A stretch of 42,432 nucleotides of DNA, from the NCBI GenBank assembly GCA_023231475.1, contig JALJEE010002490.1, positions 1-42,432 on the forward strand, given 5' to 3'. Below the pieces are notes generated by a model that saw only the letters and a list, made by a program, of their open reading frames with translations, had not been told where the DNA came from and did not search any database. This document shows, one piece after another, positions 756-41,327 of this stretch. How positions within the stretch are numbered: position 1 is the first letter of the stretch; every line of letters begins with the position of its first letter. The DNA is from Seison nebaliae. Lineage: Eukaryota. The position numbers and the translations under genes were made by a program.

Positions 756-3160
756 ATGAATATTCATCAAATAGAATCCTGGCGAGATCTGTTGAAGAGT
801 CGATCAGTGGAATTGGAGAAGATAAAACGTTTCGCCATTCCTGCACCGACAGAAGGTTTCAAGAATATTTTCCGCAAATTTCTCCTCCACAACGGTAATC
901 CGACGGCTTGTGTATATGAATATTGTTCTCAGCGGAAGATTCTACCTCCCAATATCGTCGAATCTTTCCACATGTTCACAAATAGTTGTTCCTCCGATTT
1001 TTGCTTTTCTGTCGAATTTCCTCAAATCATCAAATTTCCCATCGCGTATGGAAAAAATAAGAAACGAGCGACAAATAATGCGGCAATGATCGCTATGATA
1101 TATTTGCTTGCATTGCACGAGGAAGAGATTCTCGATATAAAATATGATATTAATTCCTTATACGATTCCGATTATCAATTACGTAAATTGGATAAAAGTG
1201 ATGCAGAATGGTTAATTTCTGAATCGTTACGAATTCACAATGAACCAGAGAATTATATGAAGTATCTCAAGCAAAAAATGAAAGAAATTGAGGATATTTC
1301 TATTTTGTTCCGGCATGCCAAAGAGTTCACTTATGCTGACATTATGGCACTTCAGAAACTTCGATGTCGAATGCCACGCTATCAACTATTGAAAATGGGA
1401 AAACGTTATCATTTTGAAACATCATTTTCATCAAAATTGAATACTCTAGATATGAGTAAGCCGATTTCTATAACGATAAATATCGAATTCGATGAAACGA
1501 ATGATATTACGAAAGAGTTGTCCATCTCGAATAAAATAGAACATTCTCATAACAGTTCATGTGAATTGTTGGGGGAGAGAAAAATCTGTGACTGGGCACT
1601 GATTTATCTATTGAAAGCCATCGTCAACGTCCAACGACAACAGGAATTATCAACGATGTTTGATCGTATAAATTCGAATATAATCAGAGAAATTCAAAAC
1701 AATGCTTCCATCATCGTTGCATTGGCACGTGCAGGAAATCAAGAATATTTTGGAGCGATTCTACAAACCTCAAAATCAGGAATTGGTGGATCGAAGATCG
1801 TAGCTTTTTCTTCATGTGCTGCCGGTGTCCATCAACATCGTCCCAAACAATTTTTCCAGGAGAATGTTAATTGTAGTGGTCGATATTTACACGACATGAG
1901 TATCATCACAACATTGAAACGATCATTTTGTATGTATCTGACAAGAGAGATCGAGAAATACAATACTTCATCTTATTCGATTTTCGAGAATGTTTATCCT
2001 GAACAACAGAACGTCATCTCATTTAAACGTTTCGGAAGTATTCGATTAAGAAAACGGTCAGATATCTGGTTCAATTTGTATCTGAATTTCATTCCAGATG
2101 GTGGGGCGAAAGATCTTTGTGATTTCATCGATGAAAATAAATTGAATAATGTTCCTGTAGATCAAGTAGCATTTCTGGAGAATGTACAGAGAGATGGATC
2201 GAATGAAGATGTAGAAATGAGTGATGAAACAGTCAATCAATTAAAAGAAGCAGTTGAAAATGAGAAGAAATTATGGAGTAAAGGTTGTCATATTCATAAT
2301 CTTCATGAATCTTATGCTCGAGATCGAGTCGCTCCATTTCATGTGAAGAATGTGAAATTTAATCAATCTACTTCTCTTCTCAATGACGAGGAACATAGCT
2401 CTCTTCCAATGTCATCATGTGATAAAATCCTCCAATGGCAAGTGATCGGATGGCAAGGTGGTTTACTCTCTTCAATCATAAATCCTATTTATATGAACAC
2501 GATAACTATCGCTGACAAAAAATTCCATTATCAATCTCTCTGTTCATCATTCTGTTGTCGCCTTGTCGATTTCCGTTTGAATGAGAAACTACCAACAGGA
2601 TATATCGTTAAACATCCATATATTGGACGACCATTCTCTGATACGAAATTCCCAAAACTAAGCCATTTAATTAGTGATGTGCAAATTAAATTAGAAGGTA
2701 GTCCGAGAAAAATACAAATCAATTCCAAAAATCCTTATATGATTCTTTATGCGGCTAATCATGAAAGTTGTGAATCGATCGATACGGCGAAAGGATTAGA
2801 AGCCAAATTCTCGGAAAAGAAAACTAACGCCAATACATTAACTCCTATGATATGTAAATTGGGTAATTTCAATAGATTCCGTATCGCATGGAGGAAATTG
2901 AACGATGGAATCGCCCAAACTCCCGAACATCGCGCTTATTATAATGAATTTGTCAAAGAGGTCAATTATCAACAATTGAAGAAGAAAATCAGTGAGGAAA
3001 GTGGATATTCGTTAGCGAAACAACACTTCCGAGAACATGTCGAAATAATTCAGTTAATTTTCATTTTCATTTCTTAAAAAATTCATTTTCTTATTTTAGA
3101 TTTGGAAAATGGAAATCTGCATCTCATTTGCTCAATCGATTTTCGATACCTATCAATTAA
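756..3160 (+). CDS. ADAR-family dsRNA-binding protein with degenerate deaminase domain (ADAD1/ADAD2-like)
   Basis: N-terminal dsRBD (NPTACVYEYCSQR...GKNKKRATNNAAMIAM). Deaminase motifs LHDMSIITTLKRSF, FNLYLNFIPDGGA, MSSCDKILQWQVIGWQGGLLS. Intron 3053-3099 (GTTAAT..TTAG) restores the ADAR-like end QFGKWKSASHLLNRF; stop at 3158-3160. Confidence 0.85.
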
Positions 3161-3570
3161 CCAAAATCAACTATAATCAACATTCAAAGATCTCTTTATA
3201 AAATAAACTCTTCTAAGAGAAAGATTTATCCATAAAAATTTTTGTTATAATATTCCAATTTGCCTTTTTTCCTAACAATTTTCGTTAAACTAAAATTCTA
3301 CCAATTTATATTCCAACTAATTTTCGAGAAGTAAAATATCGAAAACGAACGATAACTTAAATCCATTTTCTAAACTTCTAAACTTTGAATATTCTCATGA
3401 TGATTTTGATAAGAAATTATAAGATACAGAAGTAGATAAGTGTAAAAAAGTGTTAATAGTTGTGAGAATCGTTGAAGACAACGACTATTATTCTAGTATA
3501 AACTCCCTAACAAGTTCTTGTCATTTTTTTTGGAAAAAGTGTATTTTGTTTCCAAAAGAGTGATGACGAT

Positions 3571-3810
3571 AAAGAAGAAGTAGAAGTGTCAAAAAATTTT
3601 GTTAAGTAAGAAGTAGAACTGTCCTAATTTGTAAGAAAAGAGAGCAGAGGTGTCCTATATTGCAGAAAAAAGAAGTAGAAGTCTCCGTAATGCTTGAAAG
3701 AGGAGTTAAAATATCTATTCTGATAAACCAAAAGAAGTAGAACTGTCCGAATGAAAAGCGTAGAATTGTCTGTTTTTGAAGAAAAGATCAAAATGATTGG
3801 AACTGTCCCG
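3571..3810 (+). repeat. Degenerate tandem array, core AAGAAGTAGAACTGTCC, ~31-bp period, ~8 units
   Basis: GTAGAAC/GTGTC-like cores start at about 3580, 3613, 3644, 3675, 3705, 3737, 3760 and 3797. Confidence 0.8.
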
Positions 3811-4019
3811 CATTCAAATTTGCTTGAATTATTTGGCGAATTCAATTTGTATTTCAAAATTAGTTTGATATTGGACGAATCGGTGAGTAATAAATTTTTG
3901 TTCTGAATTTTTTATGGAGTTCTAATTTTTGACACGGAAGAATTTTTGTAATTAAAGTTCAATTTTTGAGCATTTAAAAATATTTATTAAAAATTTTCTG
4001 TTCTAACAAAAAAAAAAGA

Positions 4020-4382
4020 ATGAATGAAACTCTCCGAACGAACACGGAAGGATTTGAGAAGAATGTGGGGAAAGTGATCGAAGGCAATTCACTTATGTTA
4101 CAATCGCCATTAACCAGAATGTTCGATAATTTATACACATATTCGTCTGGTCGTTGTCATAAATTTGATGGGAAATATCGAGAATGTCAAGCGAATTATG
4201 GTCCAACAAGAAGTCGAGAAATGTGTCGATATGAGTACGAGGATTTGAAGGAATGTGTATTTCTGGAAAAGACACACAAACGTCATTTGATTATACAGGA
4301 GGAACGTGAGAAACAAAAAAGAGCATTTTTACCATCTCCTGAATATGATACGTTCCATCGAAGGAAATTTCATGCAATTTGA
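4020..4382 (+). CDS. NDUFS5: NADH:ubiquinone oxidoreductase subunit S5 (15 kDa)
   Basis: 120 aa with twin CX9C motifs (CHKFDGKYREC, CRYEYEDLKEC) followed by KTHKRHLIIQEEREKQ...PSP. Intronless. Confidence 0.8.
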   Translation: MNETLRTNTEGFEKNVGKVIEGNSLMLQSPLTRMFDNLYTYSSGRCHKFDGKYRECQANYGPTRSREMCRYEYEDLKECVFLEKTHKRHLIIQEEREKQKRAFLPSPEYDTFHRRKFHAI

Positions 4383-4538: not shown

Positions 4539-4706
4539 ATGTGTCACAAAGTCAAATGCCAAAAATGTCAGAAATGGACGTGGGCCGGATGTGGTCAACA
4601 TGTCGATCAAGTTCTCCTTTCCCTCAATCTTCTTCTTTCATTTCGTGCTCAGGTATTGAGAGGAGTAGAACCGAAAGATCGTTGTACTTGTCCGAAGAGA
4701 AGATGA
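4539..4706 (+). CDS. 41-aa Cys/His-rich microprotein MCHKVKCQKCQKWTWAGCGQHVDQVLRGVEPKDRCTCPKRR
   Basis: ATG at 4539; exons 4539-4610 and 4653-4706; 42-nt in-frame intron GTTCTC..TCAG. CxxC, WxGCGxH and CxC motifs. Below the ORF-track length cutoff. Confidence 0.75.
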   Translation: MCHKVKCQKCQKWTWAGCGQHVDQVLLSLNLLLSFRAQVLRGVEPKDRCTCPKRR

Positions 4707-4822: not shown

Positions 4823-6058
4823 TCAATAGTAGAACATTCCTAATAATTTTTTAAGTTCTCTCATTTTTTTCGAGGCGATTTCTTTCGCCATTTCTCCATT
4901 CGTCTTTATCGTTCGATAAAGTTCTCCTTCCAAATATTTCTCATTTGAACTCAATAATTCTTTGTAAATGGAACGAATTGGTTTGAAATGTTCAATCAAT
5001 TCAGATGTTAATAATCTCTTGTATTTAAATGTATCGATATTCGATGGTAATTGAGAGATAATATCATCGATCGATTGTTTCGTCATTAACGAATGAATTT
5101 TCAATAAATTTGAAATTCCTGGACGTTTCTTCTCATCATAATAGATGTCACTTATTGAATCAGTTACTGATTTTCTAATTTTTTTTGAAATTTCTTCTTC
5201 CTCATCGATGATGGAGATGGTGGAGAATTTATCTTTCGATGATTTGGACATCTTCTCCTCTGGTCGTCTCAACGAATTGATCTTACTAAATTCATCTAAT
5301 TAATTAATAGAAACAAATAAGAATTAAGAATTAAGACAAACAAAAAGAAAACTTAAGAGAATTTGAGGAATTACAAAAATTTCCGAATTTGTATATTGGT
5401 TGAATTTACGTGCAATGTCTCTAGTGATTTGGACATGTTGAACATTATCTTCTCCAATCGGTACATGAGTAGAACTGAAGAATTTAAATTTGTGATTAAG
5501 AGAAATGAGAACTCGTATAATAAGATATCAGCCGCCTGTAAAATTGGATAAGTGAAGAGACCGACAGTTGCTTCTTCCCGATTTTTTGATTTCTCCTATG
5601 AAAATGATTAATTTGAATAAAAGAAAATTTAAATAAAACTTTGAAATGATGTAATTGTTTCAATCGAGAAATTGTTGTAAAATTATTGAGAATTGTTTGT
5701 AATTCTGAATGTTCATTCACCTGTTAATAGAAGATAAGAATGAATGTAAAGAAATGAGTAGAAATAGAACATCTGATTGGAGGAATAATGTGGATTTATT
5801 GGGATGGATACCTGAAGCGACTAAAGAAGCGATCATTCGATTTATATTTAATTTCAATTTATTTCCATCATGAAATTCAGTTTTTTGAAAATCAGGAGGA
5901 ATCGATGTTAACGAATGATAATCAACAACTGACAAATATAATTTGTTGTCCTTCTCTTCTTGCAAATCTCGCCAGAGAGTTATGGCACCAAAATAATTAC
6001 CAATATGAGGAACACCTGTAGGCTGAATACCAGAGAAGACGATTCGTTTCAATGACAT
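4823..6058 (-). CDS. WARS2: Mitochondrial tryptophanyl-tRNA synthetase
   Basis: VFSGIQPTGVPHIGNYFGA (HIGH motif), GLFTYPILQAADILLY, HVPIGED, KMSKS. Introns 5721-5770, 5596-5639, 5475-5512, 5296-5352, all GTT..AG. Confidence 0.93.
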
Positions 6059-11219: not shown

Positions 11220-11223
<4 letters not shown>

Positions 11224-11252: not shown

Positions 11253-11255
<3 letters not shown>

Positions 11256-11518: not shown

Positions 11519-13270
11519 ATGAATTTGTCGTTAATTCATTGGAGGAATTTTGTCACCTTAATTTTGATAATTCTCATCAATTCCCATAAGAATGAAGCGA
11601 ACGACTGTAACAAAATGTTCATAGGATCATCTTTCGTCTGTAAATGTACAATTGATTTTTGTGACTCACTTCCCATCCTCCATCGTTTGAATGAAACAAT
11701 TTTTGGATTTACATCTGATAAAGAATCATTGCGATTCAATCATATCAATTTTACTTTTACCAAATCATTTATTCATGAACATCAGGAAAGAGTTTCCATC
11801 AACATTAAGAAGAAAAAGCAGAAAATCATTGGCTTCGGTGGCGCATTGACTGATGCGAGTTTATTGAATTTAGGAATAAATAAATTTCAAATTATCAATT
11901 CTTTCTATTCTCCAAATGGAAGTGAATATAATTTGTTACGTCTGCCAATAGGCGGTACCGATTTCTCAACGGAACCATATACTTATAATGATGTGGAATT
12001 TGAAGATTTTAATTTAACTCAATTCAAATTAAAATTGGAAGATATCGAACTAAAAGTTTATTTTTTTTATTCCATTTAAATCTACCATTATTCATAAGAT
12101 ACCTATCATTCAATTAATTAAAGAAATTCAAACGGATTTGAAAATTATTGGGAGTAGTTGGTCTGCTCCTGAATGGATGAAGACAAATCGACAATTTCGA
12201 GGGAAAGGTCAATTGAAAGGAGATCCGTTAATCCAATCACAATATTATTCCACTTGGGCTGATTATTATTTGAAGTTGAATTTATTTAATTATTTTATAC
12301 ATTTTTATTGATATTTGAAGATTTGTCAATTCTTATAAAAATTTCAATATTTCTATTTGGGCTTTAACTGCTCAAAATGAACCGACTGATGGTGAAATTA
12401 AAGGATTCTTATTCAATTCGTTAGGATTTACAGTAGAACAACAACGTGATTTCCTCCATTATCATTTATTGCCAAAACTATTAAATAATGGAGAAGAAAA
12501 GATGAAAATTTTCATTTTAGATGATAATCGTTTAATGTTACCACAATGGAGTAAAATCATTCTACAAAACCAATTTCTTTATAACCATATTTATGGTATA
12601 GCAATTCATTGGTATTTAGACGATTTCGTATCACCATCAGTACTCACTCTCACACACAATCTATTTCCAAATCATCAACTGTTGGCGACGGAGGCATGTG
12701 TCGGTTTCACTCATTTCCCCAAATCCGTCATACTCGGTGATTGGTATGGAGCGGAAAATTATGCTTCGAAAATTATTGACGATCTAAACAATTGGGTGAC
12801 AGGTTGGATTGATTGGAATTTGATTTTAAATCAGAATGGTGGACCGAATTGGGCGAACAATTTCGTTGACGCTCCTCTCATTTCAATGAACAACGGAACA
12901 TTTTACAAACAACCTCTCTATTATGTTATTAGTCATTTTAGGTTATTATTATTCTCAATTATTGTTGCAAATGATTTTTTAATTAAAATATTTTAAAGTA
13001 AATTTATTCGTCCACAATCATACAATGTTGAAGTAGTTCATTCAATTGAAGATTTTAAAGTAGTCGCATTTATTTACGGGAATGAATTGTCAATTCTAAT
13101 TCTCAATAAGTTTATTCAATTTTTATTGAAACATTATTTAATTAATCTTCATTCAAATTTTTTTCAGATTTTCACAGAAAAGAAATATCCATTTCGATAT
13201 TAACGATGATAAATCGTTCGACATTATCGTTACTGCCAATTCAATAACTTCCTTACGTCTTGGAATATAA
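11519..13270 (+). CDS. GBA1: Lysosomal glucosylceramidase (GH30)
   Basis: Signal peptide, VCKCTIDFCD, QKIIGFGGALTDA, RLPIGGTDFS, catalytic TAQNEP and ATEACVG, GWIDWNL, GGPNWANNFVDAP. Introns 12056-12098, 12275-12320, 12942-12998, 13110-13167. Confidence 0.93.
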
Positions 13271-13399
13271 TTTCCGAATCAACAAATTATTTCTAGTGAA
13301 GTGATTTCTATAGAATTTGTACAATTTTTCAATATTTTCTTATTTGACGAATTTTGGATGACTAAAATTAATTAAAAGAAAAATTATATTTTATTACAC

Positions 13400-14698
13400 T
13401 TATCTAATATCTATTGAAAATTTATCGACAAGTTTCTTTTCGATTCGATAATGCATTTCATTCACTTCTTTTTGTGTTAATGATCGTTCCATATTTCTAT
13501 AGACAATACGATAACATAAACTTCGTTTTCCCGTTTTTGAATGAGTGAATTTGTCCATTAGTTGAATTCTTTCGATATTCTCATTTCCAATTGAGAGGAC
13601 GATATCGTAGAAATCTTTCTCGTCAAATAATTTCTCGTCATTAATCCAAAAGGAAATGTCATTCGGACATGGTGGATAGATACTTATTGGTTTATATTGG
13701 ACATCTTCTTCTGAATCATCGAAATAGAATTGAGAAAGAAATCCTTCATCCGTCGTCCAGAATAATCGGATATCTGGAATATTATAGAGGAACATGGCCA
13801 ATCGTTCCAATCCAATTCCGAAAGCCCATCCAATTTTATTTTGATGTGGTAAACTTTGTTCGATGATTCCTTTCCTCATTATTCCACATCCCAACAATTC
13901 TATCCAATCCTTTTTCGATTCATCAGAAAACATCACTTCCAATTCCCAACTAGGATCAGTAAACGGGAAATATGCATCGACCCATTTCCCTTCAATTCGA
14001 TTTCTATAATTTTTAAATTATGAAAAATTTTTAAAAAAAAAATTCGACTTTTTTGAAACTTTATTCGATTTACCATTTTCGAAAAGATATTTCACTAAAT
14101 TCAAAAGAAGATTCTTCATATCTTCTTCCAACATTTTCTCGTTTATCGTCTCATTCTGATCGATGACATGAACTGCTTCCAATTGATGAAATATCGGAAA
14201 ATGAGTTCCGTCTACATGATCTCGACGATAAACGTCTCCGAATAAACAGAAAGAATTGAACTTCTTCAATGTCTGGACTTGATGGGCGGAGGTGTGTGAA
14301 CGAAGTACTTCGTTTTCATTCAAATAAAATTGTTCTGATGGTGAACGACTTCCATGAGATTTTGGAACTAATAACGAATCGAAATTCTCTTCACAACTCA
14401 CAATTGGATTATTGAGTGAAATTAATTTAAATTCTTTTCTATCTTTTGAATCGATTATTATCGAAATGAAGGAATGAATAAAGGAACTTTGTTTGAAATA
14501 ATTCTCAATTCGTCGTCTCAAATGCCAAAGAGGATGATATTTTTGATGGAGTAGTTTCTTGTCTGTCAATTTGAGTACTCGATCAGGAATATTATAAATT
14601 TTCTTGTTTTTCTTCTCTAAAATTTGAGAGAGAATTGTTGGAGTTGTCAGACGATGACACTCTTTCGACGAATGAAACAAAAGAGAAATTAATTTCAT
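13400..14698 (-). CDS. FARS2: Mitochondrial phenylalanyl-tRNA synthetase
   Basis: LRSHTSAHQ, GDVYRRDHVDGTHFPIFHQLE, WVDAYFPFTDPSWELEV, GWAFGIGLERLAM and C-terminal anticodon-binding domain. Introns 14443-14487 (in-frame, inferred) and 14004-14048 (alternative 13990-14073). Confidence 0.93.
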
Positions 14699-14732: not shown

Positions 14733-15761
14733 TTATTGTAAATTATTATTCACTTCAATCACATCAGATAAATCCTCTAATTTCTCAATGATACTCTCCA
14801 CAACTCTCAATCGATTATCCAAATCATCCTCATAGATCAATGTGGCTTCTTTCACTACTTTCCTTCTCAAACCACTGTTGATGATATCGAACGATTTGTT
14901 TCTCAACGTTTCTTCAATTTGTGATAATTTATGTACATGACAAATAAACTGGAAAAAAATATAATAAATAGACAATTTAAAGAAAATTTGAAAAAAAATT
15001 TTTAAACTGTCAAAAATTTTTCATCTTTTCCTTCTATCGTCACATCATCGGCTTCCATGTCGATCGCTCGATCAGTAGCGACATTTATAATTTCTTCTTC
15101 ATTTTTCAAATTCAAATTTTCTTCTTTACAAAATTCTTCCAATTTGATTACTACCGAATATTCATCATGGAACCATCGTTGAACATTATTCATTGTCATT
15201 TTTGGACTAAACATTTTCAAAATCTCAAAATGATAATTTAGGATGAACAAAATGAACCTTGCATTTTTATCTTTTATCTTCCTCAATATCGCCATGATGT
15301 TACCTTTAGTAATTTTTGAATTAACACCAGAACAAGTTAACAATAATCCCAAATCACCATAGAGAATACATTCCATGAAATAATTCTTATTTCCTGCTTT
15401 CTTTCAAGAAATTTCAGGAGAAAATTTAATGGAAACAATTCCATAAAAAAACCATCTTTTCCAATATCCTAGTGATCGTTGCAGCAGGCATATTCATCCT
15501 CTTACATTCATTCACAACTGATGCCAATTGTTTATTGACTTTCATATCAGTCGATTGTCCATTATCTTACATAATATCATAATAATGTGAAGAGAATAAA
15601 AGATGGAAACTGATCGATTGAATTAATCTCGTTCGTAATTGGGAGAAGATTTTTGATCGTGCCAAATCGTTCGATTCTTTCACATTCTTAATATTCTGCC
15701 AATGTGCATGACCTTTATATCGATGAATTATTTTCAATATATTCCATCGATAACATAACAT
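14733..15761 (-). CDS. TACO1: Translational activator of cytochrome c oxidase 1 (YebC/PmpR family)
   Basis: KGHAHWQNIKNVKESND..RSKIFS, NKQLASVVNECKRMNMP, end LEDLSDVIEVNNNL. Introns 15566-15610, 15401-15452, 15207-15257 (in-frame, inferred), 14949-15007. Confidence 0.85.
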
Positions 15762-15762
15762 T

Positions 15763-15890: not shown

Positions 15891-18041
15891 TTAATTGTTC
15901 GTTCCTTTACCTAATTCGATCGCTTCCATGATTGATAGTGGTTGCCATATCGAATCGCGATAAGTGATGATATTTCCTCTTTCGAATCGAATGAAAATAT
16001 CACCCAAAACATAAACCGATTTATCTAAAAACAAAATATGAAGAGAATTGGAAGAAATGAATCGAAACTTTCTATCAATTTATTCGATGAAAGAAGAAGT
16101 ATATTATGTTCTGTCGCTTTCGCTTGTAACACGTCTTTAATATCCATCGAACTATTCGAATGGAAATTTACCATCTTTGTTTGAATCAAATCGATATTCA
16201 ACTTGGACGATTTCATTCGTTTCTTATTTGAATAACAAGTGATCTGATTCTTCGTCATCTTCTCCTTCATCATTTGAAGAGCTAAATTGAAATTGTGTTG
16301 AATGTCTACCTCATTAAGAATAGATGATGGAATTCCATTTTTCCATTCTTTATACCATTTCCCCACCAGATAATTGCTACAATTCTCATTAGATAACCAT
16401 TCGTATAAGAAGTGGAGCCATTTGGGAAAGAAATTCTCATTGAACATTTGAGCGAGGAAATTGGATGGAATTAAATTCGACCATTCCATCAAAATATTCC
16501 ATTTTTGTAATTCCTGATGGTTTTTCGATAGATCGATCTCTTTCAAATTTATCGATAATTTTGGAATAATATTTCTCAAAATGAATGTTTCCCAATCACT
16601 CGATTTCCATTCCTCCTTCCATGGTAATAACATTTCGATGATTTGATGATTTGTCGACGGTTGACAATCCCAATCGGAATCGATGAAAATATTTGAAAAT
16701 TTCCGTTGAATTACAGAATATGTTTCTTCCAATTTATTATCATTATCATTTCGAAGAAACTTCTTCCAATTTAATGTCCATTGATGAACAGGTAATGAAT
16801 CGTTTGATGGATTCCAATCATTTTCGAGAAGATAATTAATTTTTGGAATAATTAAACTATCGAGACAATAATCATAAATAATTTCTGGAATTATCATCTT
16901 CCACAAAGTGAAGAATTTATGTAAATCTTTCGATTTTCCATTCCAATCAGTTGCGATGCCTTTTCGCACATGAGGCAACCAAGTCTCCCAAATGAATTGA
17001 ATATAATTTGTAATTCCATTCATGGAATGGACAGATGGACCGAGAATTCTTTCACAATCTAAAAATCGATCGATATTATTTTCTGGATATTTCAAAATAT
17101 TCCAATTTATCATCTCTTCATTCTCATTCATCATCTCGATCATTAATGATAAGGGAAGATGATTAAGATCATAAACGGATAATTCAGTTTCGAATATCTC
17201 CAAAAGAATTCCAATTTCTTCTAATTTCTTATCGAAATTTTTCTCTTTATAAATCTTATCGATCAAATCGAAGAAATTATTCACATTTTCTAATTGTTTG
17301 TCCAATGATAATTGTTCATCATTCAAATTATTCAATTGATGTCGAATATTCTCTCGATTTTGTTCGTCGATTTGTTTATTTCGATTAATGTCCAAAATCT
17401 CCTTCTCCAATTCCTTTATACTTTTATTTAAATTAATACGCAATTCTTTCACATCGAAATGATGATATTTCTCTTCATCGTCTTCCGATTTCGTCATTTC
17501 ATTTTTCAAATCGAATAATTCAAATGATTCTTTCCCTCTCATATCGATGATCTTCTCGTTCTTCTTTCGAGAACCGTTCGATAAATTCATCAATAAATTC
17601 CTTTCGATTTCATCTTCCTCACCCATCTCATCATCGATAATCATTTTTAATCGATTCTCTTTCTTTCTTAATCGTTTCCTCTTAAATTGAATCTCTTCAC
17701 TATCATCAAATTCCACCACATTATTGAAATTGATCAATTCATTGACTGTTCGAATTTTTTGTCTTTTTTCTCTTCGAATTTGTTTCTTCTGTTTAAATAA
17801 ATAAATGAGAAATATTTAAAAATAATCAACTAACATTCTCTTCGTCACTTACTTCTTTTTCTGAACGATCATCATTTCGTTTATTCACCTTGTCTCTCTC
17901 GTCGCCATATAGACCGAGAGCTCCTTTTCCTTGTCTAGGCTTCGCTACGATCGGATCAGATCGTCCCTGCAAATTCTTCCCAATTCCTTTGCCTTGCACG
18001 TAACCCATCTGCTCCATCAACTTTTTTCCCAAATTACTCAT
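15891..18041 (-). CDS. TFIP11: Tuftelin-interacting protein 11 / Ntr1 (spliceosome disassembly factor)
   Basis: G-patch ([23 protein letters not shown]), coiled coil, GCFC domain (WLPHVR, IIPKL, FFPKWL, WYKEWK). Introns 17789-17834 and 16025-16068; stop at 15891-15893. Confidence 0.88.
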
Positions 18042-18833: not shown

Positions 18834-25039
<6,206 letters not shown>

Positions 25040-27177: not shown

Positions 27178-27353
27178 TTAAATTGAAGAATTGAAACACG
27201 TTTCATCTAAACGACAATCAGACGATCCGACAATTACTGGCCGTTTTCCTAAATCATTCATTTCATTCGATAAACGATGAACATCTTTCCGTCGCTTTAA
27301 TGGAGCTTCACTCTCATCAACATCATAAGGAATATTATAATTATAATTATTAA

Positions 27354-27387
<34 letters not shown>

Positions 27388-28967
27388 ATTATTATTATTA
27401 TTATTAATATTATTATTATTATTATTGTTGTTGTGTTTATTATTATTTGAATTTGTTGAATAGATGATATGAGGATTATTTAGAGTAGAGAAATTGGTTG
27501 TCTCAATTAAATTCTTTAAGATTGTTGGAAGTTTATGATTATGAGTTGTATTATTTGAATTTAACATCGATAAAATTTGTTCATCTTTCTCATCATTATG
27601 TCCGATATCGTTCAAATTTTTCTTATTCTCTCCTTCTTTCAAAAGATAATCGGTTGTATATTGAATGGTTTTAGGAAAGAATGATGATGATTTCTCACAT
27701 TCTTTATTATTAACGTTTGGAGAAATTCGGATACTAGAACGTTTCCGATTCGCGTTGCTCATATTCGTATAAGATAAATCATCAAATTTCTGATCGATCG
27801 TCAACAGATCGGGCTTGAAGAGACGGAAGGTGTTCATTGTCGGTATTCGTTTCATTCGTTCCACATTTGGATGGAGAGATGACAATGGAGTGAACAAAGA
27901 TCCACGTCTCATTGATGTTTCTGGTTTGATATTACCCATTTGGAAATCATTCAATTGTGCGAGATATTTCAATGCTGGATGTCCCAGACGACCTTTCAAT
28001 TCATTTGATATACTTATCGTTGGAATATCATCTAATAATGGAAATAATTGTAATTAAATTTATTCAATATTATTTTAACCTTTATCATTTTTCCCATTTT
28101 CCAGATTTGATGGAAATTGTGATGAATTCGTTATACCATTTACATTTGTATTAAATTGTCGATTTGATTTGGTTGTTTCGATTCGATTGTCTAACTTGTG
28201 ATTTGGACATATATTCCAATTGGGATTGATGGTAGTCTGATTTTGTTGTATTGGCGAATGAAGAATATTATCAATGAAATTTTTGATATTTGCTGTTTGT
28301 TTCTCGTCGATGACTGGTAAGAATTCTTCTTTTATACTTTCATCAATTTTGGGAATATGATTTGGTTGAATTGTTCCTCCTTCCAATGAATGATCCGTCT
28401 CCTTAAATTGATCGAATTGTGATGGTTGTTGGACATTTTGATTGTTCTGAAATTGAGGAAGTTGATGGGCTGGTATCAATGGCATTTGCTCACTAATAGA
28501 AAGACGATTATTACTTTGATAATTTGAGACATCATTACCCGAATGATTCGGATCTTTGAAATTAATTATGGGAATATTTTTATAAATATAATTCAAAAAT
28601 TCATCTGGATCATTCATAGTCGTTGAAGATAATTCATTGTGACAATTCTCCAATTGATTAACTTGTTTTTGTTGTTGTTGTTGTTGTTGTTGTTGATGAA
28701 TTTGTAAAGCTTCTAAACGATTTCGTTGTTCGTCGATGAGATGAGGCAAATTGAATTTTAAAAATTTTCGTTCGTTATGACCATTTTTTAGTTGATTATC
28801 ATTATTACATTCGTTAAAAGATTGATTAGGAATAAATTTGTCATTTGTCATTTCTTTTTTAAATTTATGATTTTGTTGAAATTGATTTCTTTCATGATGA
28901 TTACATTGTAAATGAATCGGATCTATATTTCCACTTTTTTTCATCGATGACGGATTAATTTGTGATG

Positions 28968-29000
<33 letters not shown>

Positions 29001-30517
29001 GGAGATGTTGAATTTGTTGTTGTCGATGTGAAGCGGAGAAAGAAGAAATATTTGAACATAATTTCATTTGTTTGAGACTTCGAATGATATGATTTCGAAT
29101 AAATCGATATTTTTGATTTAGAATAATGGAATAAATTGCATAATAATCATCAAATAAATTTGAATTAATACTCTTCAATACTTTATATTTGACACCCTCC
29201 AATAGACTACTATTCTTCTCATAATTACTTTTTGTAATAATTCCTTCTATCGTCTTCTCAAACGCCTCCTCTGCCAATAATCGTTCACATTCTCCATTTC
29301 TAAGAACGCCACCAGTAAAAACACGTGCCGCTTGATCATTCAATAACATTCCCATATTTCCATTCGATTTCAAATAAGAGAAGAACATAGGAGAACAATT
29401 CATACGGAACCAATCATGTGAAGCGATTTGTTTTAATGAGAGTCTCTCATTCGGATCCACTTTCAATAATGATGAGATTAATTCTTTCAAATTATTCGAC
29501 AATCTCTTCGGCATATTATATACACCTGAACATACTTTATCTTTCAATTTGGGTAGATCGTCCGCATAAAATGGGAGACATCCACTCACCATATAATACA
29601 ATACGATGGCCGACGACCACACATCCACATATTCAGGTTGATAAGCATTTCCGCGAAATAATTCCGGTGCCGCATATGGTGGAGATCCACACCACGTCTT
29701 CAATAAAACATTATTTGTATTCGCTTCAATAAATGAGAAAATTATTAAGAATAAAATATTGAATAAAACCTTCAGCTTTATATGTTCGTGCAAAGCCGAA
29801 ATCGGCCAATTTTGGCGTCATATTCTCATCGAATAAAATATTCTCCGCTTTCAAATCCCGATGAGTAATTCCCAAACGATGACAATGAATGAGTGCACTC
29901 ACAATTTGCAAATAGATATCAGCCGCGATATTCTCCGACATCGCTCCTTTTGAACTAATATAATCTAATAAATAGTAATGAAAAAAATGTTAAATTTTAA
30001 TATGGAAATTCAATTTTAAACCATAAAGATCTCCATTTGTTGCATATTCAGTTATAATATATACATGATTGCGTGATTCCATCACTTGATGCAATGTAAT
30101 GATACATGGATGTGACTGCACTTTCTGCAAACTGAAAACAAATAAAATTGAATATTTAGAGAATGGAAAAATGAACGTTAAAATTTCCGTTTTTAAACGA
30201 TCGTGTCCTTCTTTTTTCAACACTTCTTTGTCGATGATCTTCACCGCCACTTTCTGATTGATGAGGGAATGCATTGCCAATTTCACCGTGGCAAATGTAC
30301 CACACCCAATCGATTTGACTAATTGATACACTCCAATTTTATTATCTTTCTTCCTCTCCATATTGGGGACGGTCGTTGACAGATTTCTATTAGTATGCAT
30401 TTCTGTCATTTGATTGTTCCCATTTTCCTTCCATTCCTTCCTTTCCACCTTCCCCGTAATATCTCTACATATTTCACGTACGCTTTCATTATAATTCAAC
30501 TGACAATGTACATTCAT
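27178..30517 (-). CDS. AMPK-related Ser/Thr kinase, salt-inducible kinase (SIK)-like, with poly-Q/poly-N tail
   Basis: IGCGTFATVKLA, VAVKIIDK, HRDLKAENIL, DFG and the SIK-type activation loop LKTWCGSPPYAAPELF. Introns 30132-30176, 29965-30021, 29724-29769, 28032-28079. Confidence 0.82.
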
Positions 30518-33449
30518 CTCATTCTGATGAGGAGAAATTATAATTAAAAAATCGACAAACTAATTTGGAGTTGATGAAGAAAATGAGAAAAACTGCAAAT
30601 AAAGTTCAAATATAATTCAAATAAATGATTCGATATTAATCCTCTTAATTAACTTCCTCTAACAGTTGTAAGAGGAGAGTCTAACGAATATCAAACAGAA
30701 ACTTCTTTTTCCGAAAGAGACTTTGTTGAAACTAAAAAAAAAATAAGTTTAGAAAATTAGAAAAAAATCATTTTCAAAACTCAAAAACTAACAAGAGATG
30801 TTATATATATAGAATAAAAGTTAGAGAAGAGAATGTTATTTTTACAAAGAAATTTCTTCTTCTCATAAAATCAAAAATAGTTAAGAAAAAGAACAATTTC
30901 CACCCTGTAAAAAAAAGGGGGCGAAGGAATTTCACTTGTGGAAAAAGACGAGTGTGTTCTGTGCATATCAATGAAGACATTCTTTTACATAATTTGTTTT
31001 AGTCTGATTCTTATAATTAATATGTAATATTTATTATGTAAAAGAAACTTGAAACAAATCGATTATATAAGAGAATATCATTTTTTCTCAAATAAAAAAA
31101 AAGTACTTGCTCTTTAATTTGTACCAATGTATTAACGATGATCTTTTCTTTTATTTTTTTTTCAGAAATTACCATGTACAAATTACACATTAGAAATATG
31201 TGGATGAGAAAGGAATACGTAGAGTCAATAGTATCAGTGCATGTACGCTTATAACCATATTTGAACAATCGTATCATTATTTTACTACCATATGTGTTCA
31301 TTTCATGTACCTAATTGTCTGCATATGATGAGTTTTCATTAATAACATTCATATAGTCGTGTGTATGCGTAGGAAGGGAAATGTATGAACATCCTTGAAG
31401 AACATCAAAATTAATTATTCTTATTTAAACTTTCATTTTTATATATATCACCATCATCATCGACTATTTTCATATGAATTGAACTAGCAAATCTGTCAGT
31501 GTTCTATGTCATCTAAAACATATCATTTCCATTTATTTGTTATGTAATGATATTCTTGCAATCCCTTCTGTCTCATACAGATCGTTAGTGCATTGTTGGT
31601 TAGAGGAGGAAGTGCCTCCCTTCCCCTCTACAATCCAACATTTCGATGAGAGTGCTAAGTCTCAGCTCATATGCTAGACTTCATGACAGACGCAACAATG
31701 TCAATGGAATGAAAATCCATTAAAATTTAATCATTCAATTACCTCAATACTTAATAATTCATCATGAAATACAACGAATAATTTTCATATTATTTCTCGT
31801 TTACAACTTGTGTGTAAGAAGGAGTTGTTTTATTTCTACCGCTGTTACTCCAATAAGAAAAGTTCATTTCTTTTTTTTGCACTTCATTCCATTCAAATTC
31901 AGGCAAATTCAAATTACTTACTCGAACTCGAAATTGAGTTCAAAAAATATTCTACTTACTTAACTTGACATCTCTTCATTTCGTCTAGATTGGAATGAAT
32001 TGAATTTTCTAAGTAAATTATTTTCCCATTAATCTTTTCAACTAAACTATCAATTTAGGAACACCAAACAAACTTCTTCTCATCAATATGTGATAAAACA
32101 TCAAATGTTCTCCTTTATCTTCATTCAACTACATAATATTAACATCTTATATATTCGAGACTCTATTTTAATAATGGCCTTGTCTTCTGATAATACAATG
32201 TCGTTCAATATAACAATTAATCACAAAGTCTCACCTTCTGTGGATCAATCCATTTCGTCTTTTCCTTTTTCTCATCCTCCAACCACTCCCTTAACTTCAC
32301 TACCTCAATATTCCACTCAAATTACAAGCTGCAACTAATCAAAGTGAATTAATCAAAGGAGAATTGTTATCTTAAAAAAAATCCTCGAAAATCTTCTGAA
32401 AGAAAACTCTCAATCTTCTCTTTCCTTCATTTCTCCCTCTCTCTTCATTCGTAACGAATTCCATGCGATTAAGCGTAAGTAAAATGGTTGAAAAAGAAAA
32501 GAAAATCAAACTTTTTCGTCTTGTTTTTCAAGAGAATAAATATTCAATTATTTCTTCATGATTGTTTTCAAAACATCTCCACCCAAAAAAAATCTACACG
32601 AAATCGAACAGATAAACAAATTTAAATTCTCCTTTTCTCTCTTTCTTTTTCCATTGGAATTCCTGTCAATTTTCCTCCCCTCGAAATAAAAACACAATTA
32701 CCTTGACAAAGAGCAAAAGTGACAAAACGGCTTATTAATTTCTAAATAAATTAGTTTTTTATCGATCATATTCGGACAATGCCCAAAACATGGAATTTGA
32801 TCTTGTTCCATTTATTATTGCACTCTCACTAAAAATGATAAATCAGGAAAATTCCTTTTGATTTTATGTTAAATGGATGTCTCTTTTTTTATGCCATTAA
32901 TATTTCTGCTGTTCGCATAAAAACAAGAGGGAATTGAATAACCATATTATTTCCACCATTTCCAATTTTTATTCTTTCCTCCCACACTAATATTTTTCTC
33001 CTAAACAAAATATTTACTCGAATTCAAATTTCTCTCTTGATTACAGATATCACAATCATCTATCATCCTTCAATCACGAAACATCTAGAAAAATTTCATT
33101 TATCATCATTGTTGATCATCATCAACACTAATTTAATGGAATAATAATGATTAGATCTTTTTTTAATTAAGTTTTCCCAAATAAACAACTTCAAAAAATT
33201 TTATTAACATTTCTCAAATTTTTTCTGTTTTTGATTCTAATTTCATGAACTTTGTACAAAATATTTTCATTCTTCTGAAATTAAAACTAACTAAAATTTT
33301 CCGACAGAATTTGACATTGAAAAATTGTAGAATTTTACATTACTACACACCACAACTAAAAAAGTGAAATTCATTAATTAATGTAAATTGTTGAAAGTTG
33401 AATGAAATAAATTTAATAATAAAATGGAAATATTTGAAAAAATAAAAAT

Positions 33450-35892: not shown

Positions 35893-36155
35893 AAATGTAT
35901 AGAATCATGTGTTAAACATTCTGAATTTTCATGGTTCAACTCAATGATAAGAGAAAGACGAAAATTAATATAAGACAATTGTAATATAATAAGAAAAAGA
36001 ATAATCGACGAAAAAGTGATATTGAATGATTAAATGATAGAATAAAACGATAAATTATTTATTCAAAATATTAAAAGAAAATTTTCATTAGTTTCACAAT
36101 TGCCATGAGAATTATAACTGAACTGTAATTTCACCTTTGACAAAATCGTCTCATT

Positions 36156-36864: not shown

Positions 36865-39026
36865 TCAGTCAGTTTTTTTCTCATCTTTCCATTTGAACAT
36901 TCTTTCAAGTGTTTTCGAATATCTTGGTGCGACCTTTAAAATGAGATTTAACATTTGTTTAAAAATAATTTAAATGAGAACTTTTGATACGATAGATAAT
37001 AATTTGGCATCTTTACTTTCAGCGCTGTCTGTCTTTTGGAATAAAGGTTTGATCGTCGGATTTTGTTCATCTTTATATAAATCTTTCAAATGACGTACAA
37101 GAGACTAGAAAATGGAATGTAATCAAAGAAAGTTTAAAAAAGAAGAATGTGAACGATTTGACTATTATCTTCAACTCGTTTAATTTGTTTCTTGACAATT
37201 TTATTCGCTCTCTTTTTCAATAAACGATCGACTTCCGGATAATCTCGTAACACTTCATGAAGATCACTCTTGTGAAGAATGAACAATGCGGAATATCCTT
37301 TCGATATGACATCGGCTGTTCGTCGATTACTATTACCAATCGCCAATAAACTAATTTCACCGAATACACTTCCCTTTCTCAAAGTTGCTACAACTTTCCC
37401 ATTTACTCGAACAATCAATTCACCACTATTCACTATATACATTTCTTTCCCAACTTCTCCACATCGACAAATGTAGTCACCAGGTAGACAGAGCATTGAT
37501 TTCAATTTCAAAACTAAATTATATAAAACATTCTTCTCACAATTCTAAAATAATTTATTAAATCGATCGAAGAATAAATAAAGTAAAACTTGGAATAAAT
37601 TTACTTTTCTTAACGTTTCATAATGGACATAAATTGCCACGTCAGTTTGAATTCGAGCCGGTAGAAATTGTAGAACTTCATCTTCATCTATCGGAAGAAT
37701 TAAAAATTCAGATGAATTCCAAGTAAAAATAATTCCCACCGATTAAATCACCAACCTAAAGTCTTACACTTTTCCCAATTATACAAATACCAATCTCTCA
37801 CTTTATTTAACAATTTATCGGGCACTTGCAACATTTTTAAATAAGACAATGAGAGATCAAGTGCTCGATGGAACGCCATTTTATTAGCACGGGCTGATTG
37901 TATAATATCTTTCATTTGACCGATGAGAAAAGCGAAGACAAACACACTGACGAGCCACGCACTCGTCATAAATAAGTATTCACCACTATTCGTTGGTCGT
38001 GGATTGTTGCCGATTGACGTGGCCAATTTGGCACATAAATAAAATGAGACGACATAATGATTCGTATTGATATATTTCGTTGCATTCAAATACCAATTAT
38101 TCTCGATTCCTTTCGCTTTCTGAATAGGAATCACCGTTTTCTCCTCGTACAATGAGAAGACGTAATAAATACAACTCTCACAATGAATAAGGAAGATCAT
38201 ATATTGGAATGTTTCCAACATTCTAATTTTCAAATCATAATTTGCATTTTAATTAAATAATAATAATAATTAATTAATCTATTTATATATCGAAGAGAAA
38301 AATAAGAAACCTTAAAAAATGATTCCATCGTTTGACATGTTGATCTAATCTCATGAAAAATTCCACGAACGATCCCAATTTCAAAAAACGGTTCAATCTC
38401 AATAAAATCGCATATCGTAAATATGGAATTAGATAAAGTAGATCGATCGGTACACAACTGAGAACATCGATCTTGAAATAGCCACTATGAATATATTCAT
38501 ATCGTAGTCGTTTCGTATCTTTTATCTCCAATCCATCTTCAATGTAACTCTTTCTCATTTTCACGAAAATCATATCCATCAAATAAATGAAATCGCATAA
38601 AATGTCCATGCCAATCCATATTAGTCGATTCTCATCATTCCATACATATGAGAATGAGTATCTGAATGTGATGGTATAACATTGGAACATGTAAGCCAAA
38701 CTGACAAGAAACAACCAAAGTAGATATGGAATATTTTGAGGATCGATCGCAGAAATAAATAAATTGAAAAAGATCACACGAAAATAATTTCCTTTTACAC
38801 TCACCAATTGAGCGGAATTACTTTCGTCGTCATTCAATTCATTCAAATTATGATCGATTTTATCGCCGATCGATTCATCTGAATCTGATTCACCATCTGA
38901 CTGATATTGGACTAATGATTTAACGAATTGTTGCCGTTCTTGTAATTGATCAGCTATCGAACTTAAACGAGAACGAACAAACGACGAACGTTTACTCTCC
39001 AAATTGAACGTAGTCGACGACGACAT
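36865..39026 (-). CDS. Cyclic nucleotide-gated channel beta subunit (CNGB/TAX-2-like)
   Basis: S4 LLRLNRFLK, pore LATSIGNNPRP, FVFAFLIGQMKDII, CNBD GSVFGEISLLAIGNSNRRTADV. Introns 38223-38310, 37688-37755, 37545-37589, 37105-37154, 36934-36981. Confidence 0.88.
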
Positions 39027-39887
39027 AATAGTTCGAGAAGAAAAATATTATTAGATAATTTCCATTTTGAGCATAATGTTTTTCCGAATGAGAATCATCT
39101 TCTGAGAGAAATCGATAAGAAAATGCCATTTATTCTTATTCTTTTATTCACCGAATAATTCTATTTCTCTAAAATGTTAGTTTATCTTTAAAAAATATGC
39201 ACAATTCTTTTCGCTAAAGAAAAACTAATTAACTTATTTTCCATATTTCCCCATATAGAAGAATTTATTTACTTACAATTAATATATATAATAATTGATA
39301 TATCGTCACTTTATTGGCATGAATTAGATCATATCTTTATTATAAACATAAAACATTGTATATTTTCTACTTGTCTCTCTCGAACGCTAAATAATTACTT
39401 CGTAATGTCTTCCGAACTTTTCACACCGTTGTATATTTATCCTTCATACGTCCACCTACTCATTCCATCCATCATATTCTTGATACTTGTCCTTAATTAA
39501 TATCTTTTCGTTTCGTTTTATGTTACTGTCGAATGGATTATCATTTTTCGTTTTGAGAAAAAAATTCTTTTATCTCTAACATGAGCTAACTCATGTAACT
39601 TTATTTTTTTCAAAATAATTAATTTCTCTCATCTTTTATAACAATCTTTGGTGTAACTGCTACGTGAAGTTTAATTCCCATCTGAAAACGGTAGCAATAT
39701 CCTAAGAATAAATGATACATCTTAACTATTTTGTAATCCTAAATCGTCGTATTTAAAATTTGGTTTATTGGTTAAAAGATCTTACCAATAAACGATCAAG
39801 GTTTTTCTACAACTCTAAATTATCAAGCGTATAACTAAAGAACCATAAAATTTACAAATTTTAGTATGCACACATGAGGGTTCGATT

Positions 39888-40065
39888 GGACAGTTCCACT
39901 TCTTTTTTAAAACTCCTTTGGACAATTCTACTCCTTTTTTTACACTTCGATGGACACTTCTACTTCTTTTTAAGAAATTTTGGACAGTTCTACTCCTTTT
40001 CTTAAAAATATCAACAGTTCTACATCCTATTTGGAAATTATACGGACAGTTCTACCCCTTTTCTT
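39888..40065 (-). repeat. Second, inverted copy of the ~31-bp array (GGACAGTTCTACTYCTTTT x6)
   Basis: Units start at 39888, 39920, 39952, 39982, 40012 and 40044. Followed by the perfect palindrome CGAACTGCAGTTCG at 40074-40087. Confidence 0.85.
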
Positions 40066-40160
40066 GAAAATACCGAACTGCAGTTCGTTAAAAATAATAA
40101 ACAACTCGGAACATTAGTGTAATTAATTTGTTCGAATATTTAATGAAACATTGAAATTAA

Positions 40161-41327
40161 TTATTTTAATTTTAGTAGTTTAATTAAATAAAATGATTTG
40201 TACGCAGCTAATGTGGATGCGGCTAAACCACTTTCGTGTGCTTCACAATTATGTTCCATATCGAATAAAGTATTCCGACGTCGGCGACTCAAATAACTAT
40301 TGTAACATCCAAATTCATTCTGCCAAGATATAATCAAATTGAATCGTTCAACGGTGAAAGCGTTGATTACTCCATTTATTCCGGATAATGTTACTAGAAT
40401 TATATGAAGAAAATGAAAATGTTAATTGAAATTTTTTGAAAATTAAAAATAAACATTCTTCCAGAAAAATATCATGATAGCCATCAGCAACTGTTCCGTT
40501 TTCATTTAGACGATTCAAATCCTTCAGAAAGCCATGTCCAGCTTTTTCCATTTTTTCTTTTAAATATTCTTCTGTAAATTCTTCTTTCGAACAATTCGAT
40601 CGTTGCATGAATAGGAAATAGAGGAAGGAATGAGTGAGAATGTAATTCTCTTGAGATAATCCTTTATTCATATAATCTAAACATTTCTCCAATTCTTCAC
40701 ATCTAATTCAAATAAGATTAGAAACATGGAAATCTTTTTTAAAATCTTTTCGAGGAACTTTCCACGAATGTCTTGAAAACATAAATCGCCAAACTGCTCA
40801 TCATATTCGAATCCTTCATTTAAGTCATTCGCTAATTTTTCATCCGTATCATAAGTTCGAAATGGTAAAATATTCTTCTCGAAATTCTGGTTGTCCTTCA
40901 ACACATAAGAGAATTGATGGAAATAATGAGTATCATCTTTCATTTCTGTTACTTTTCCCATTATATTGTGAATTCGTTCAATTTGTATTAATTGATTCGT
41001 TAAGATTTCTTTCTGTAAGAAATCTCGATAATCATCATCCAAATTATTCACCTCATTCTTCATTATACGATCTGTCAATAATTCGCTGGATAGGAGAAGA
41101 AAATCTCGAGCCACCTTAAATCCGAATGTGCCATCGAGATTTAACGTCTCAATCGAATGTTCATAATGGTCAATAAGTTTATTTAGACTTTTGTCACTTC
41201 GTTCGATAATCGACAGAATTACCGTTTTATTATAATTGGTCCGTTTATTTATTAAACGAACTGGTAAAAATTGGGAAGTGAATGTTAACAAACAGAACAG
41301 ACTGGTAATTGAAAGAATATTTCTCAT
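40161..41327 (-). CDS. UPF0764 / C16orf89-like secreted protein
   Basis: Signal-like MRNILSITSLFCLL, LNLDGTFG, YILTHSFLYFL, DIFLEE, ISWQNEFGCY, CEAHESGLAASTL. Introns 40703-40758 and 40394-40454. Confidence 0.65.

What the first reader, a model, noticed from the sequence alone, without database searches (positions are those of the whole stretch)
3053..40758. Rewired 5' splice-site code: introns start GT-pyrimidine (GTT/GTC), not GTA/GTG
Seen: across 12 genes I reconstructed 46 introns; 42 start GTT and 4 start GTC. Examples are GTTAAT (3053), GTTCTC (4611), GTTTAT (12056), GTTGAA (12275), and collagen GTTTTT, GTTAGT, GTTAAA, GTTTGA, GTCAAT, GTCATT, GTTCGT. Most boundaries are forced independently by Gly-X-Y register or conserved motifs. 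Positions +4 to +6 are nearly free. Known: the eukaryotic U2-type consensus is GTRAGT, and the +3 purine faces U1 snRNA nucleotide 6. AT-richness alone would favour A as much as T at +3, so the absence of A is not compositional. Inference: this spliceosome has switched +3 specificity, through altered U1 nucleotide 6 (U to A or G), an altered U6 ACAGAGA region, or changed U1C/LUC7/PRP8 contacts. Caveats: one FARS2 junction has an alternative GTAAAT donor, and five in-frame introns were inferred partly from this pattern. I cannot tell whether this is already published for the lineage.
Basis: partly seen in the sequence, partly recalled or inferred. Interest (0 to 1): 0.9.

Follow-up and report, generated by a model that had tools for sequence, protein, structure and literature searches.

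The report
GTT intron starts in a rotifer
In this stretch of DNA from the marine rotifer relative Seison nebaliae, all 43 introns I could rebuild begin GTT or GTC instead of the usual GTA or GTG, including old introns shared with humans, which likely means its splicing machinery reads intron starts by a changed rule.

Summary
Confirmed in the window. I rebuilt 43 introns in 11 genes: 40 start GTT, 3 GTC, none GTA or GTG (chance 1e-10 to 2e-6). Twenty-six have no in-frame GTA/GTG alternative, and a model blind to +3 picks GTY in 41 of 43. Stored proteins for two genes give the same nine junctions. One stored protein is named Seison nebaliae. All four GBA introns match human GBA1 in position and phase, so old introns were converted in place. 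Exon ends are A-rich, +4A is not favoured, and a published BUSCO table scores METTL16 missing only in Seison among 25 syndermatans. Most likely mechanism: a U1 snRNA with a purine at nucleotide 6, as in Entamoeba, plus exon-side U5 pairing. This organism's U1 and U6 were not seen, so the mechanism is untested, as is the genome-wide extent. The scan noted GTT donors before in protists (Bonamia and others); my searches found no report for an animal. New variant of a known kind.

The parts
756..3160 (+). ADAR-like deaminase gene; 1 intron 3053-3099 (GTTAAT..TAG, phase 2)
   Evidence: Pfam A_deamin; frameshift forces the intron; no GTA/GTG alternative
4539..4706 (+). Small Cys-rich gene (41 aa); 1 intron 4611-4652 (GTTCTC..CAG, phase 0), in-frame and stop-free
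   Evidence: Sequence; top composition score of 9 joins; retention possible; no Pfam hit
4823..6058 (-). WARS2; 4 introns, donor-acceptor 5770-5721, 5639-5596, 5512-5475, 5352-5296, all GTT
   Evidence: Pfam; PDB alignment runs to the first donor; all four recovered by the +3-blind model
11519..13270 (+). Glucocerebrosidase (GBA); 4 introns 12056-12098, 12275-12320, 12942-12998, 13110-13167, all GTT, all at human GBA1 positions and phases
   Evidence: Model identical to stored P0136 and best by HMM in 4 of 4; human alignment with intron coordinates c.588, c.761/762, c.1388/1389, c.1505
13400..14698 (-). FARS2; 1 intron 14048-14004 (GTCGAA..TAG, phase 2); alternative GTAAAT at 14073 with acceptor 13990
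   Evidence: Human alignment keeps the residues after acceptor 14004; GTC join 8.7 bits better
14733..15761 (-). TACO1; 4 introns 15610-15566, 15452-15401, 15257-15207 (in-frame, stop-free), 15007-14949, all GTT
   Evidence: Pfam TACO1 domains on separate exons
15891..18008 (-). TFIP11; 2 introns 17834-17789 (GTTAGT) and 16068-16025 (GTTTCG)
   Evidence: G-patch and GCFC domains; an in-frame GTAAGT lies 18 nt upstream of 17834
18834..24851 (-). Collagen IV alpha chain; 15 introns, donors 24794, 24252, 24170, 24056, 23766, 23653, 23437, 23005 (GTC), 21091, 20691, 20449 (GTC), 20244, 19532, 19329, 19136
   Evidence: Gly-X-Y register; NC1 HMM picks these joins in 3 of 3; 13 of 15 recovered by the blind model; 23437 unresolved
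27178..30527 (-). SIK/MARK-type kinase; 4 introns 30176-30132 (in-frame, stop-free), 30021-29965, 29769-29724, 28079-28032, all GTT
   Evidence: Pfam; kinase HMM picks these joins in 3 of 3 tested
36867..39026 (-). Cyclic-nucleotide-gated channel; 5 introns 38310-38223, 37755-37688, 37589-37545, 37154-37105, 36981-36934, all GTT; in-frame GTAAGA and GTAAAT decoys lie in conserved coding sequence
   Evidence: Stored P0121 (named Seison nebaliae SNEBB_001649) maps to these five introns; ungapped alignment to CNGB1 across 37755 and 37589; HMM
40161..41327 (-). DUF4735 gene; 2 introns 40758-40703 and 40454-40394, both GTT
   Evidence: Pfam DUF4735 on two exons

Best explanation
The introns here start GT plus a pyrimidine (40 T, 3 C of 43) after an A-rich exon end, and the organism likely reads them with a U1 snRNA whose nucleotide 6 has changed from pseudouridine to a purine, most likely A. 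Shown: the +3 rule in this contig, the A-rich exon ends, the absence of a +4A preference, and that at least the four GBA introns are ancestral. Inferred: the rule is genome-wide. A changed U1 would pair with GUU in the normal register. The A-rich exon end would then pair with the uridines of U5 loop 1 and make up for weak pairing to the U6 ACAGA box, which would lack its m6A mark if METTL16 is really lost. Short intron length (38-88 nt, median 48) would supply the rest of the specificity by intron definition. Old introns would have drifted to GTT through a relaxed stage in a T-rich intron background.
For: +3 is the only strongly constrained intron position after GT (0.78 bits against at most 0.22 for +4 to +10), and purines are absent rather than reduced, which needs a selective reader. 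GTTAGT, the exact complement of an A6 U1, is a joint-top hexamer (4 of 43), and +5 G is enriched (p 0.008). A canonical U1 5' end barely separates true donors from 113 decoys (AUC 0.58); A at nucleotide 6 gives 0.78 and G gives 0.66 (partly circular and confounded by intron T-richness). In the one published lineage with +3 U that I found, Entamoeba, U1 carries ACAAAC (bioRxiv 10.1101/2022.06.08.495308; abstract, passages and section 14). By contrast, +4 switches in yeasts left U1 unchanged (PMC10581693 passages). Exon -3 A and -2 A are enriched after correction for codon position (p 1e-4 and 5e-6); U5 loop 1 pairs with these exon positions (10.1101/212811 passage). METTL16 is scored Missing only in Seison of 25 syndermatans (PMC12256650 supplement), and its loss shifts usage to U5-strong sites without +4A. 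Weak hint of conservation: three low-depth diverged contig pieces that end at a donor run to +3, +3 and +6.
Against: No U1, U5 or U6 of this organism was seen, so the central step is untested. Most lineages with atypical donors keep a canonical U1, including Mamiellales green algae. Only 4 of 43 donors are GTTAGT, so pairing to any U1 beyond +3 is weak, and an Entamoeba-type AA change scores as well in the pairing test (AUC 0.82). U6 G44 also contacts +3 (PMC9803359) and could be the selective reader instead. BUSCO 'Missing' is unreliable for a long-branch species: LSm2, which is probably essential, is also Missing only in Seison, and 76 BUSCOs are missing only there. SNRNP27 and PRP8 are Complete, and +4 shows no U preference (17 of 43 against a 0.50 background), unlike yeasts that lost METTL16. 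The sample is one 42-kb contig. Junctions rest on frame, homology and stored gene models whose own basis is unknown.
Confidence: 0.45

Rival explanations
1. U1 is canonical and the +3 pyrimidine is chosen later, at the U6 step: after loss of U6 m6A, G44 of the ACAGA box would pair with +3 U (wobble) or +3 C (Watson-Crick), or the box itself has changed, while U5 holds the A-rich exon end.
For: U6 G44 contacts +3 in activated spliceosomes. Roy and Bowser note that GUUUGU could pair better with an unchanged ACAGA. It accounts for both U and C. METTL16 is scored Missing. The exon ends are A-rich.
Against: Yeasts without METTL16 changed +4, and their donor keeps +3 A (GUAUGU). A continuous helix predicts +4 U and +5 G, but these are 17 and 7 of 43. 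G-C pairing would favour C, yet C is rarer than the intron background predicts (40:3, p 0.07).
Confidence: 0.25
2. The snRNAs are ordinary and proteins set the rule: altered U1C, LUC7 or PRP8 contacts, or a TIA-1-like U-binding factor, would favour U directly after GU in very short, U-rich introns.
For: Entamoeba U1C is strongly diverged. Positions +8 and +9 are T in 30 and 29 of 43. Several splicing BUSCOs are scored Missing in Seison (SNRNP40, splicing factor 45).
Against: A general U-binding factor would not single out +3 while leaving +4 to +7 at background. No spliceosomal protein that reads the donor could be compared.
Confidence: 0.15
3. There is no switch: +3 is merely relaxed and T-rich, or the pattern is local to this contig or built in by how the introns were chosen.
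For: Intron bodies are 50% T. One contig only. My search windows were anchored on hand-built models. Two junctions tie or nearly tie with GTA donors, and a crude blind model made 10 other calls in these genes, 5 of them GTA/GTG.
Against: Relaxation predicts about 14 A at +3; none is seen (p at most 2e-6). Twenty-six introns have no purine alternative. Homology rejects in-frame GTAAAT and GTAAGA decoys. Four of the blind model's five extra purine calls cut conserved coding sequence in GBA and CNG. Eleven unrelated genes on both strands agree.
Confidence: 0.08
4. The donors are read by a normal U1 shifted by one base (GTTAAG type), or the introns are young insertions from one GTT-bearing mobile element.
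For: GTTAA starts 6 of 43 donors. Shifted-register classes were noted elsewhere by this scan (unchecked).
Against: No donor is GTTAAG and +6 G is 3 of 43, at background. The four GBA introns sit at human positions and phases. Donor hexamers are diverse (25 kinds).
Confidence: 0.03

Closest known systems
Entamoeba GUUUGU donors with co-evolved U1 (5'-AACAAAC-3'); Roy and Bowser, bioRxiv 10.1101/2022.06.08.495308 (abstract, passages, section 14)
   Same: Near-universal U at +3 in GT-AG introns of an AT-rich, host-associated lineage.
   Different: Entamoeba is intron-poor with a rigid donor (88-90% GUUUGU; +4 U, +5 G and +6 U fixed) and a fixed branch-point distance. Here the organism is an animal, only +3 is fixed, C is allowed, +4 to +7 are loose, exon ends are A-rich, and genes hold up to 15 introns. 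U1 is known there and unknown here.
Saccharomycotina +4A to +4U switch linked to loss of METTL16 and SNRNP27K; Parker et al. 2023, PMC10581693 (passages)
   Same: Lineage-wide change of one donor position; no +4A preference; METTL16 scored missing.
   Different: That switch is at +4 with an unchanged U1 and occurs in intron-poor genomes. Here +3 changes, +4 has no preferred base, and SNRNP27 is scored Complete.
AG//GU (U5-strong) class of 5' splice sites in plants and animals; PMC9803359 and PMC11732430 (passages)
   Same: Information sits in the last exon bases, with weak U6 ACAGA potential.
   Different: There it is one of two classes and +3 is loose. Here it looks like the only class, -1 is more often A than G, and purines are excluded at +3.
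Standard U2-type introns with GTRAGT donors
   Same: GT-AG ends, ancestral positions, mostly YAG acceptors (32 of 43), core proteins such as PRP8 and SF3B1 scored Complete.
   Different: +3 is pyrimidine instead of purine; 11 of 43 acceptors are AAG; no branch-point motif stood out.

Membership tests
U2-type (major) spliceosomal introns | GT...AG termini | tested here: met
   43 of 43; GC donors never ranked first in the 13 HMM-scored junctions
U2-type (major) spliceosomal introns | Purine at donor +3 (GTR consensus) | tested here: not met
   0 of 43
U2-type (major) spliceosomal introns | Positions shared with other animals | tested here: met
   4 of 4 GBA introns match human GBA1 position and phase; the other 39 were not tested against a source
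U2-type (major) spliceosomal introns | Removal from transcripts at these junctions | tested here: inconclusive
   Supported by frame, homology and two stored proteins; not shown with spliced reads
U12-type (minor) introns | RTATCCTT donor (recalled motif) | tested here: not met
   No donor has A at +3 or this motif (hexamer list)
Entamoeba-type transformed donors | U at +3 in nearly all introns | tested here: met
   40 of 43 U, 3 C
Entamoeba-type transformed donors | Rigid GUUUGU(U) hexamer | tested here: not met
   0 of 43 are GTTTGT; 25 different hexamers
Entamoeba-type transformed donors | U1 snRNA with a complementary change | not testable with these tools
   No snRNA in the window; no whole genome held
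+1 shifted-register donors (GTTAAG type) | Consensus displaced by one base, with G at +6 | tested here: not met
   GTTAAG 0 of 43; +6 G 3 of 43, at background
METTL16-loss type donors | METTL16 absent | tested here: inconclusive
   BUSCO Missing only in Seison of 25 species; false negatives are likely in this species; not searched directly
METTL16-loss type donors | Preference for U at +4 | tested here: not met
   +4 T 17 of 43, below the 0.50 intron background

The most novel reading that the evidence does not exclude
Seison is the first animal whose major spliceosome has inverted its +3 rule genome-wide: ancestral introns were converted one by one from GTR to GTY together with a rewritten U1 5' end and loss of U6 m6A, leaving a donor defined by only an A-rich exon end plus GUY.
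Probability: 0.35. Interest if true: 0.87.

Novelty: new variant of a known kind. Interest (0 to 1): 0.7.

Why it matters
The +3 purine of intron starts is among the most conserved splicing signals. Published switches are in intron-poor single-celled organisms with rigid donors. A switch in an animal that keeps many old, loosely defined introns would show that a spliceosome and thousands of its targets can change together without intron loss. It gives a cheap, direct test of an open question: whether U1, U6 or proteins decide +3. One look at the U1 and U6 genes and at METTL16 in the public assembly separates the main explanations, and comparison with acanthocephalans, bdelloids and monogononts would date the change. 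In practice, gene finders trained on GTA/GTG donors will mis-call exons in this lineage.

Tried and rejected
Sequencing-run search: no RNA holder listed. The two runs that cover the stretch showed no joint that skips one of my introns with GT..AG ends and behave as DNA; two other runs gave nothing laid. Rfam scan of the window: 0 matches. A U1-like motif in viral contigs gave 9 chance hits, none a U1. In prokaryote genome contigs 5 of 10 hits were real U1 genes from other eukaryotes, all with the canonical 5' end; they served only as a reference and say nothing about this organism. A scan for rotifer relatives in metagenomes covered 1 of 64 parts and gave mostly unrelated kinases. I examined only 1 of its 80 loci: L076, a mollusc-like PHKG fragment with two donors, GTAATC and GTAGGT. 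So there is no rotifer control. The collagen NC1 search did not return this organism's own collagen model. Branch-point search: top 5-mers were CAAAT, TTCCA and TCTTC, with no clear motif. The U5/U6 see-saw was not significant (p 0.11). Shifted register and mobile-element origin were rejected (see rivals). In one search the small gene was given out of frame; the corrected scan also found no family. Literature searches that found no report of this pattern in Seison, rotifers or any animal. Term look-ups in Mauer et al. 2021 (PMC8351084), Herlyn et al. 2025 (PMC12256650 main text), Olthof et al. 2024 and Larue and Roy 2023 showed no mention of GTT donors or of Seison splice sites. I saw passages, not whole texts. 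Subscription journals are mostly not held, including a syndermatan genome-annotation paper that I only recall, and bioRxiv supplements were closed; either could hold a splice-site logo.
Full report
Organism. The window is a whole 42,432-base contig. Its intronless PHKG protein groups with rotifers on a long branch (100/98 support, 30 of 120 hits used). The stored protein of its CNG channel gene carries the source name Seison nebaliae SNEBB_001649. Seisonids are crustacean-dwelling relatives of rotifers and acanthocephalans with compact, gene-reduced genomes (PMC8351084 passages; PMC12256650 passages). No whole genome was available.

Observation. I rebuilt gene models by hand from six-frame translations and named them with Pfam. 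This gave 43 introns in 11 genes, 38-88 nt long, median 48. All are GT-AG. Position +3 is T in 40, C in 3 and never A or G (list). Chance is 1e-10 from the window's GT sites, 8e-10 from intron composition and 2e-6 under the most pyrimidine-rich later position.

Is it circular? Four checks ignore +3. First, 40 of 43 introns must be removed because they hold a stop or shift the frame, and 26 of 43 have no in-frame GTA/GTG alternative within 45 nt upstream or inside the intron. Second, a composition score blind to +3 ranks a GTY donor first in 41 of 43; the two exceptions are ties of 0.1-0.2 bit. Third, profile HMMs from homologues pick my join in 13 of 13 junctions tested in GBA, collagen NC1, the kinase and the channel, three of which had only one candidate. 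In the channel, in-frame GTAAAT and GTAAGA lie 15 and 12 nt upstream of GTT donors, but the bases between encode residues that align without gaps to CNGB1. Fourth, a crude ab initio model blind to +3 recovered 34 of 43 introns exactly. It also made 10 other calls in these genes, 5 with GTA/GTG; four of those five cut conserved coding sequence and one is the known tie at 23437. The stored CNG and GBA proteins give the same nine junctions as mine, though how those models were made is unknown. Still open: COL4 23437 and CNG 36981; FARS2 14048 and TFIP11 17834 are favoured but not forced.

Age of the introns. Human GBA1 has introns after c.588, c.761, c.1388 and c.1505 (variant tables in PMC12394313 and PMC4228056). 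These fall at K196/I197, K254, S463 and R502 of the human chain, which align with the four junctions here in position and phase. So these GTT introns are ancestral and their donors were converted in place. I recall that the three collagen NC1 introns also match vertebrate positions, but did not test it.

Rest of the signal. After +3 the donor is nearly background: +4 A 13, +5 G 7 (p 0.008, uncorrected), +6 T 23 of 43. The exon side is informative: -3 A 25 against 13.1 expected, -2 A 29 against 14.5, -1 A 23 against 14.9 and -1 G 14 against 8.4, with expectations taken from codon-position frequencies. Acceptors are TAG 23, AAG 11 and CAG 9; no branch-point motif stood out. Low-depth contigs of a diverged lineage (about 85-90% identical in exons) occur in the two covering runs. 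Of the 16 listed pieces (of 289) and 9 listed joints, three end at a donor, at +3, +3 and +6. This hints that GTT is shared, but depth is under 5, one side is only 22 letters, and I infer that the last aligned letter matches.

Mechanism. Position +3 faces U1 nucleotide 6 early (recalled) and U6 G44 later (PMC9803359 passage); U5 loop 1 holds the exon end (10.1101/212811 passage). I favour a changed U1 (0.45) for three reasons. The only published +3 U lineage I found, Entamoeba, has a complementary U1. The known cases with unchanged U1 mostly concern +4, which U6 reads. And GTTAGT, the complement of an A6 U1, is a joint-top hexamer. A pairing count agrees (AUC 0.58 canonical, 0.78 with A6, 0.66 with G6, 0.82 with AA at 5-6) but is partly circular. 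A published BUSCO table scores METTL16 Missing only in Seison among 25 syndermatans, with SNRNP27 and PRP8 Complete (PMC12256650 supplement). That fits the lack of +4A and the A-rich exon ends, but LSm2 is also Missing only there, so it may be a false negative. Rivals are selection at U6 G44 with a canonical U1 (0.25), protein-set specificity (0.15), relaxation or local artefact (0.08) and shifted register or mobile origin (0.03). None of this organism's snRNAs was seen, so the mechanism is inference.

Comparison and novelty. It works like the Entamoeba system in having +3 U, but fails its rigid-hexamer feature (0 of 43 GTTTGT), and U1 could not be tested. It is a U2-type intron set by termini and ancestry, and fails the GTR consensus. 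My searches found no report of GTT-dominant donors in Seison, rotifers or any animal (term look-ups), but the library lacks most subscription journals and bioRxiv supplements. I obtained no rotifer control, so I cannot say whether the trait is limited to seisonids. The scan's own notes list GTT donors in Bonamia and shifted-register classes in other protists, and nothing for this genome; these are unchecked.

Verdict. Observation confirmed; interpretation partly supported; new variant of a known kind; interest 0.7. I put the chance that the rule is genome-wide at about 0.9.

Noticed in passing
window, acceptors of 11 introns (e.g. 12098, 12320, 12998, 20645, 22960, 23717, 24207, 29724, 36934): A quarter of acceptors (11 of 43) are AAG rather than YAG. 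PRP8 Gln1594 sets the -3 pyrimidine preference in yeast, so this residue is worth checking in Seison.
   Followed up: partly
window 4539-4706 (+): A 41-residue Cys-rich gene with one in-frame intron and no Pfam match; family not identified.
   Followed up: partly
window 14733-14698 and 15891-15761 (-): TFIP11, TACO1 and FARS2 lie head to tail on one strand, with gaps of about 130 and 35 bases; this could mean polycistronic transcription with trans-splicing, which is reported for rotifers.
   Followed up: no
window 35314-35904 (-): A 196-codon open frame without a start, higher in GC than its flanks, with no Pfam match; it looks like a decayed retroelement fragment (impression only).
   Followed up: partly
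window 11300-25200, runs X1 and X2: Low-depth contigs about 85-90% identical to the exons point to a second, diverged lineage in the same DNA; they could supply orthologous intron sequences.
   Followed up: partly
window 9901-11064, 6572-8251, 33450-34652, 4020-4382: PHKG, a monocarboxylate-transporter-like gene, the primase small subunit and NDUFS5 have no coding introns, while collagen IV keeps 15; intron loss is uneven.
   Followed up: no
PMC12256650 supplement, BUSCO sheet: Besides METTL16, splicing factor 45 and LSm2 are scored Missing only in Seison, SNRNP40 in Seison and one bdelloid, and ZMAT5 in Seison and both acanthocephalans.
   Followed up: no
L010, L011, L013, L015, L017: Five bacterial MAG contigs in the prokaryote genome collection carry animal-type U1 snRNA genes, which indicates eukaryotic contamination.
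   Followed up: partly
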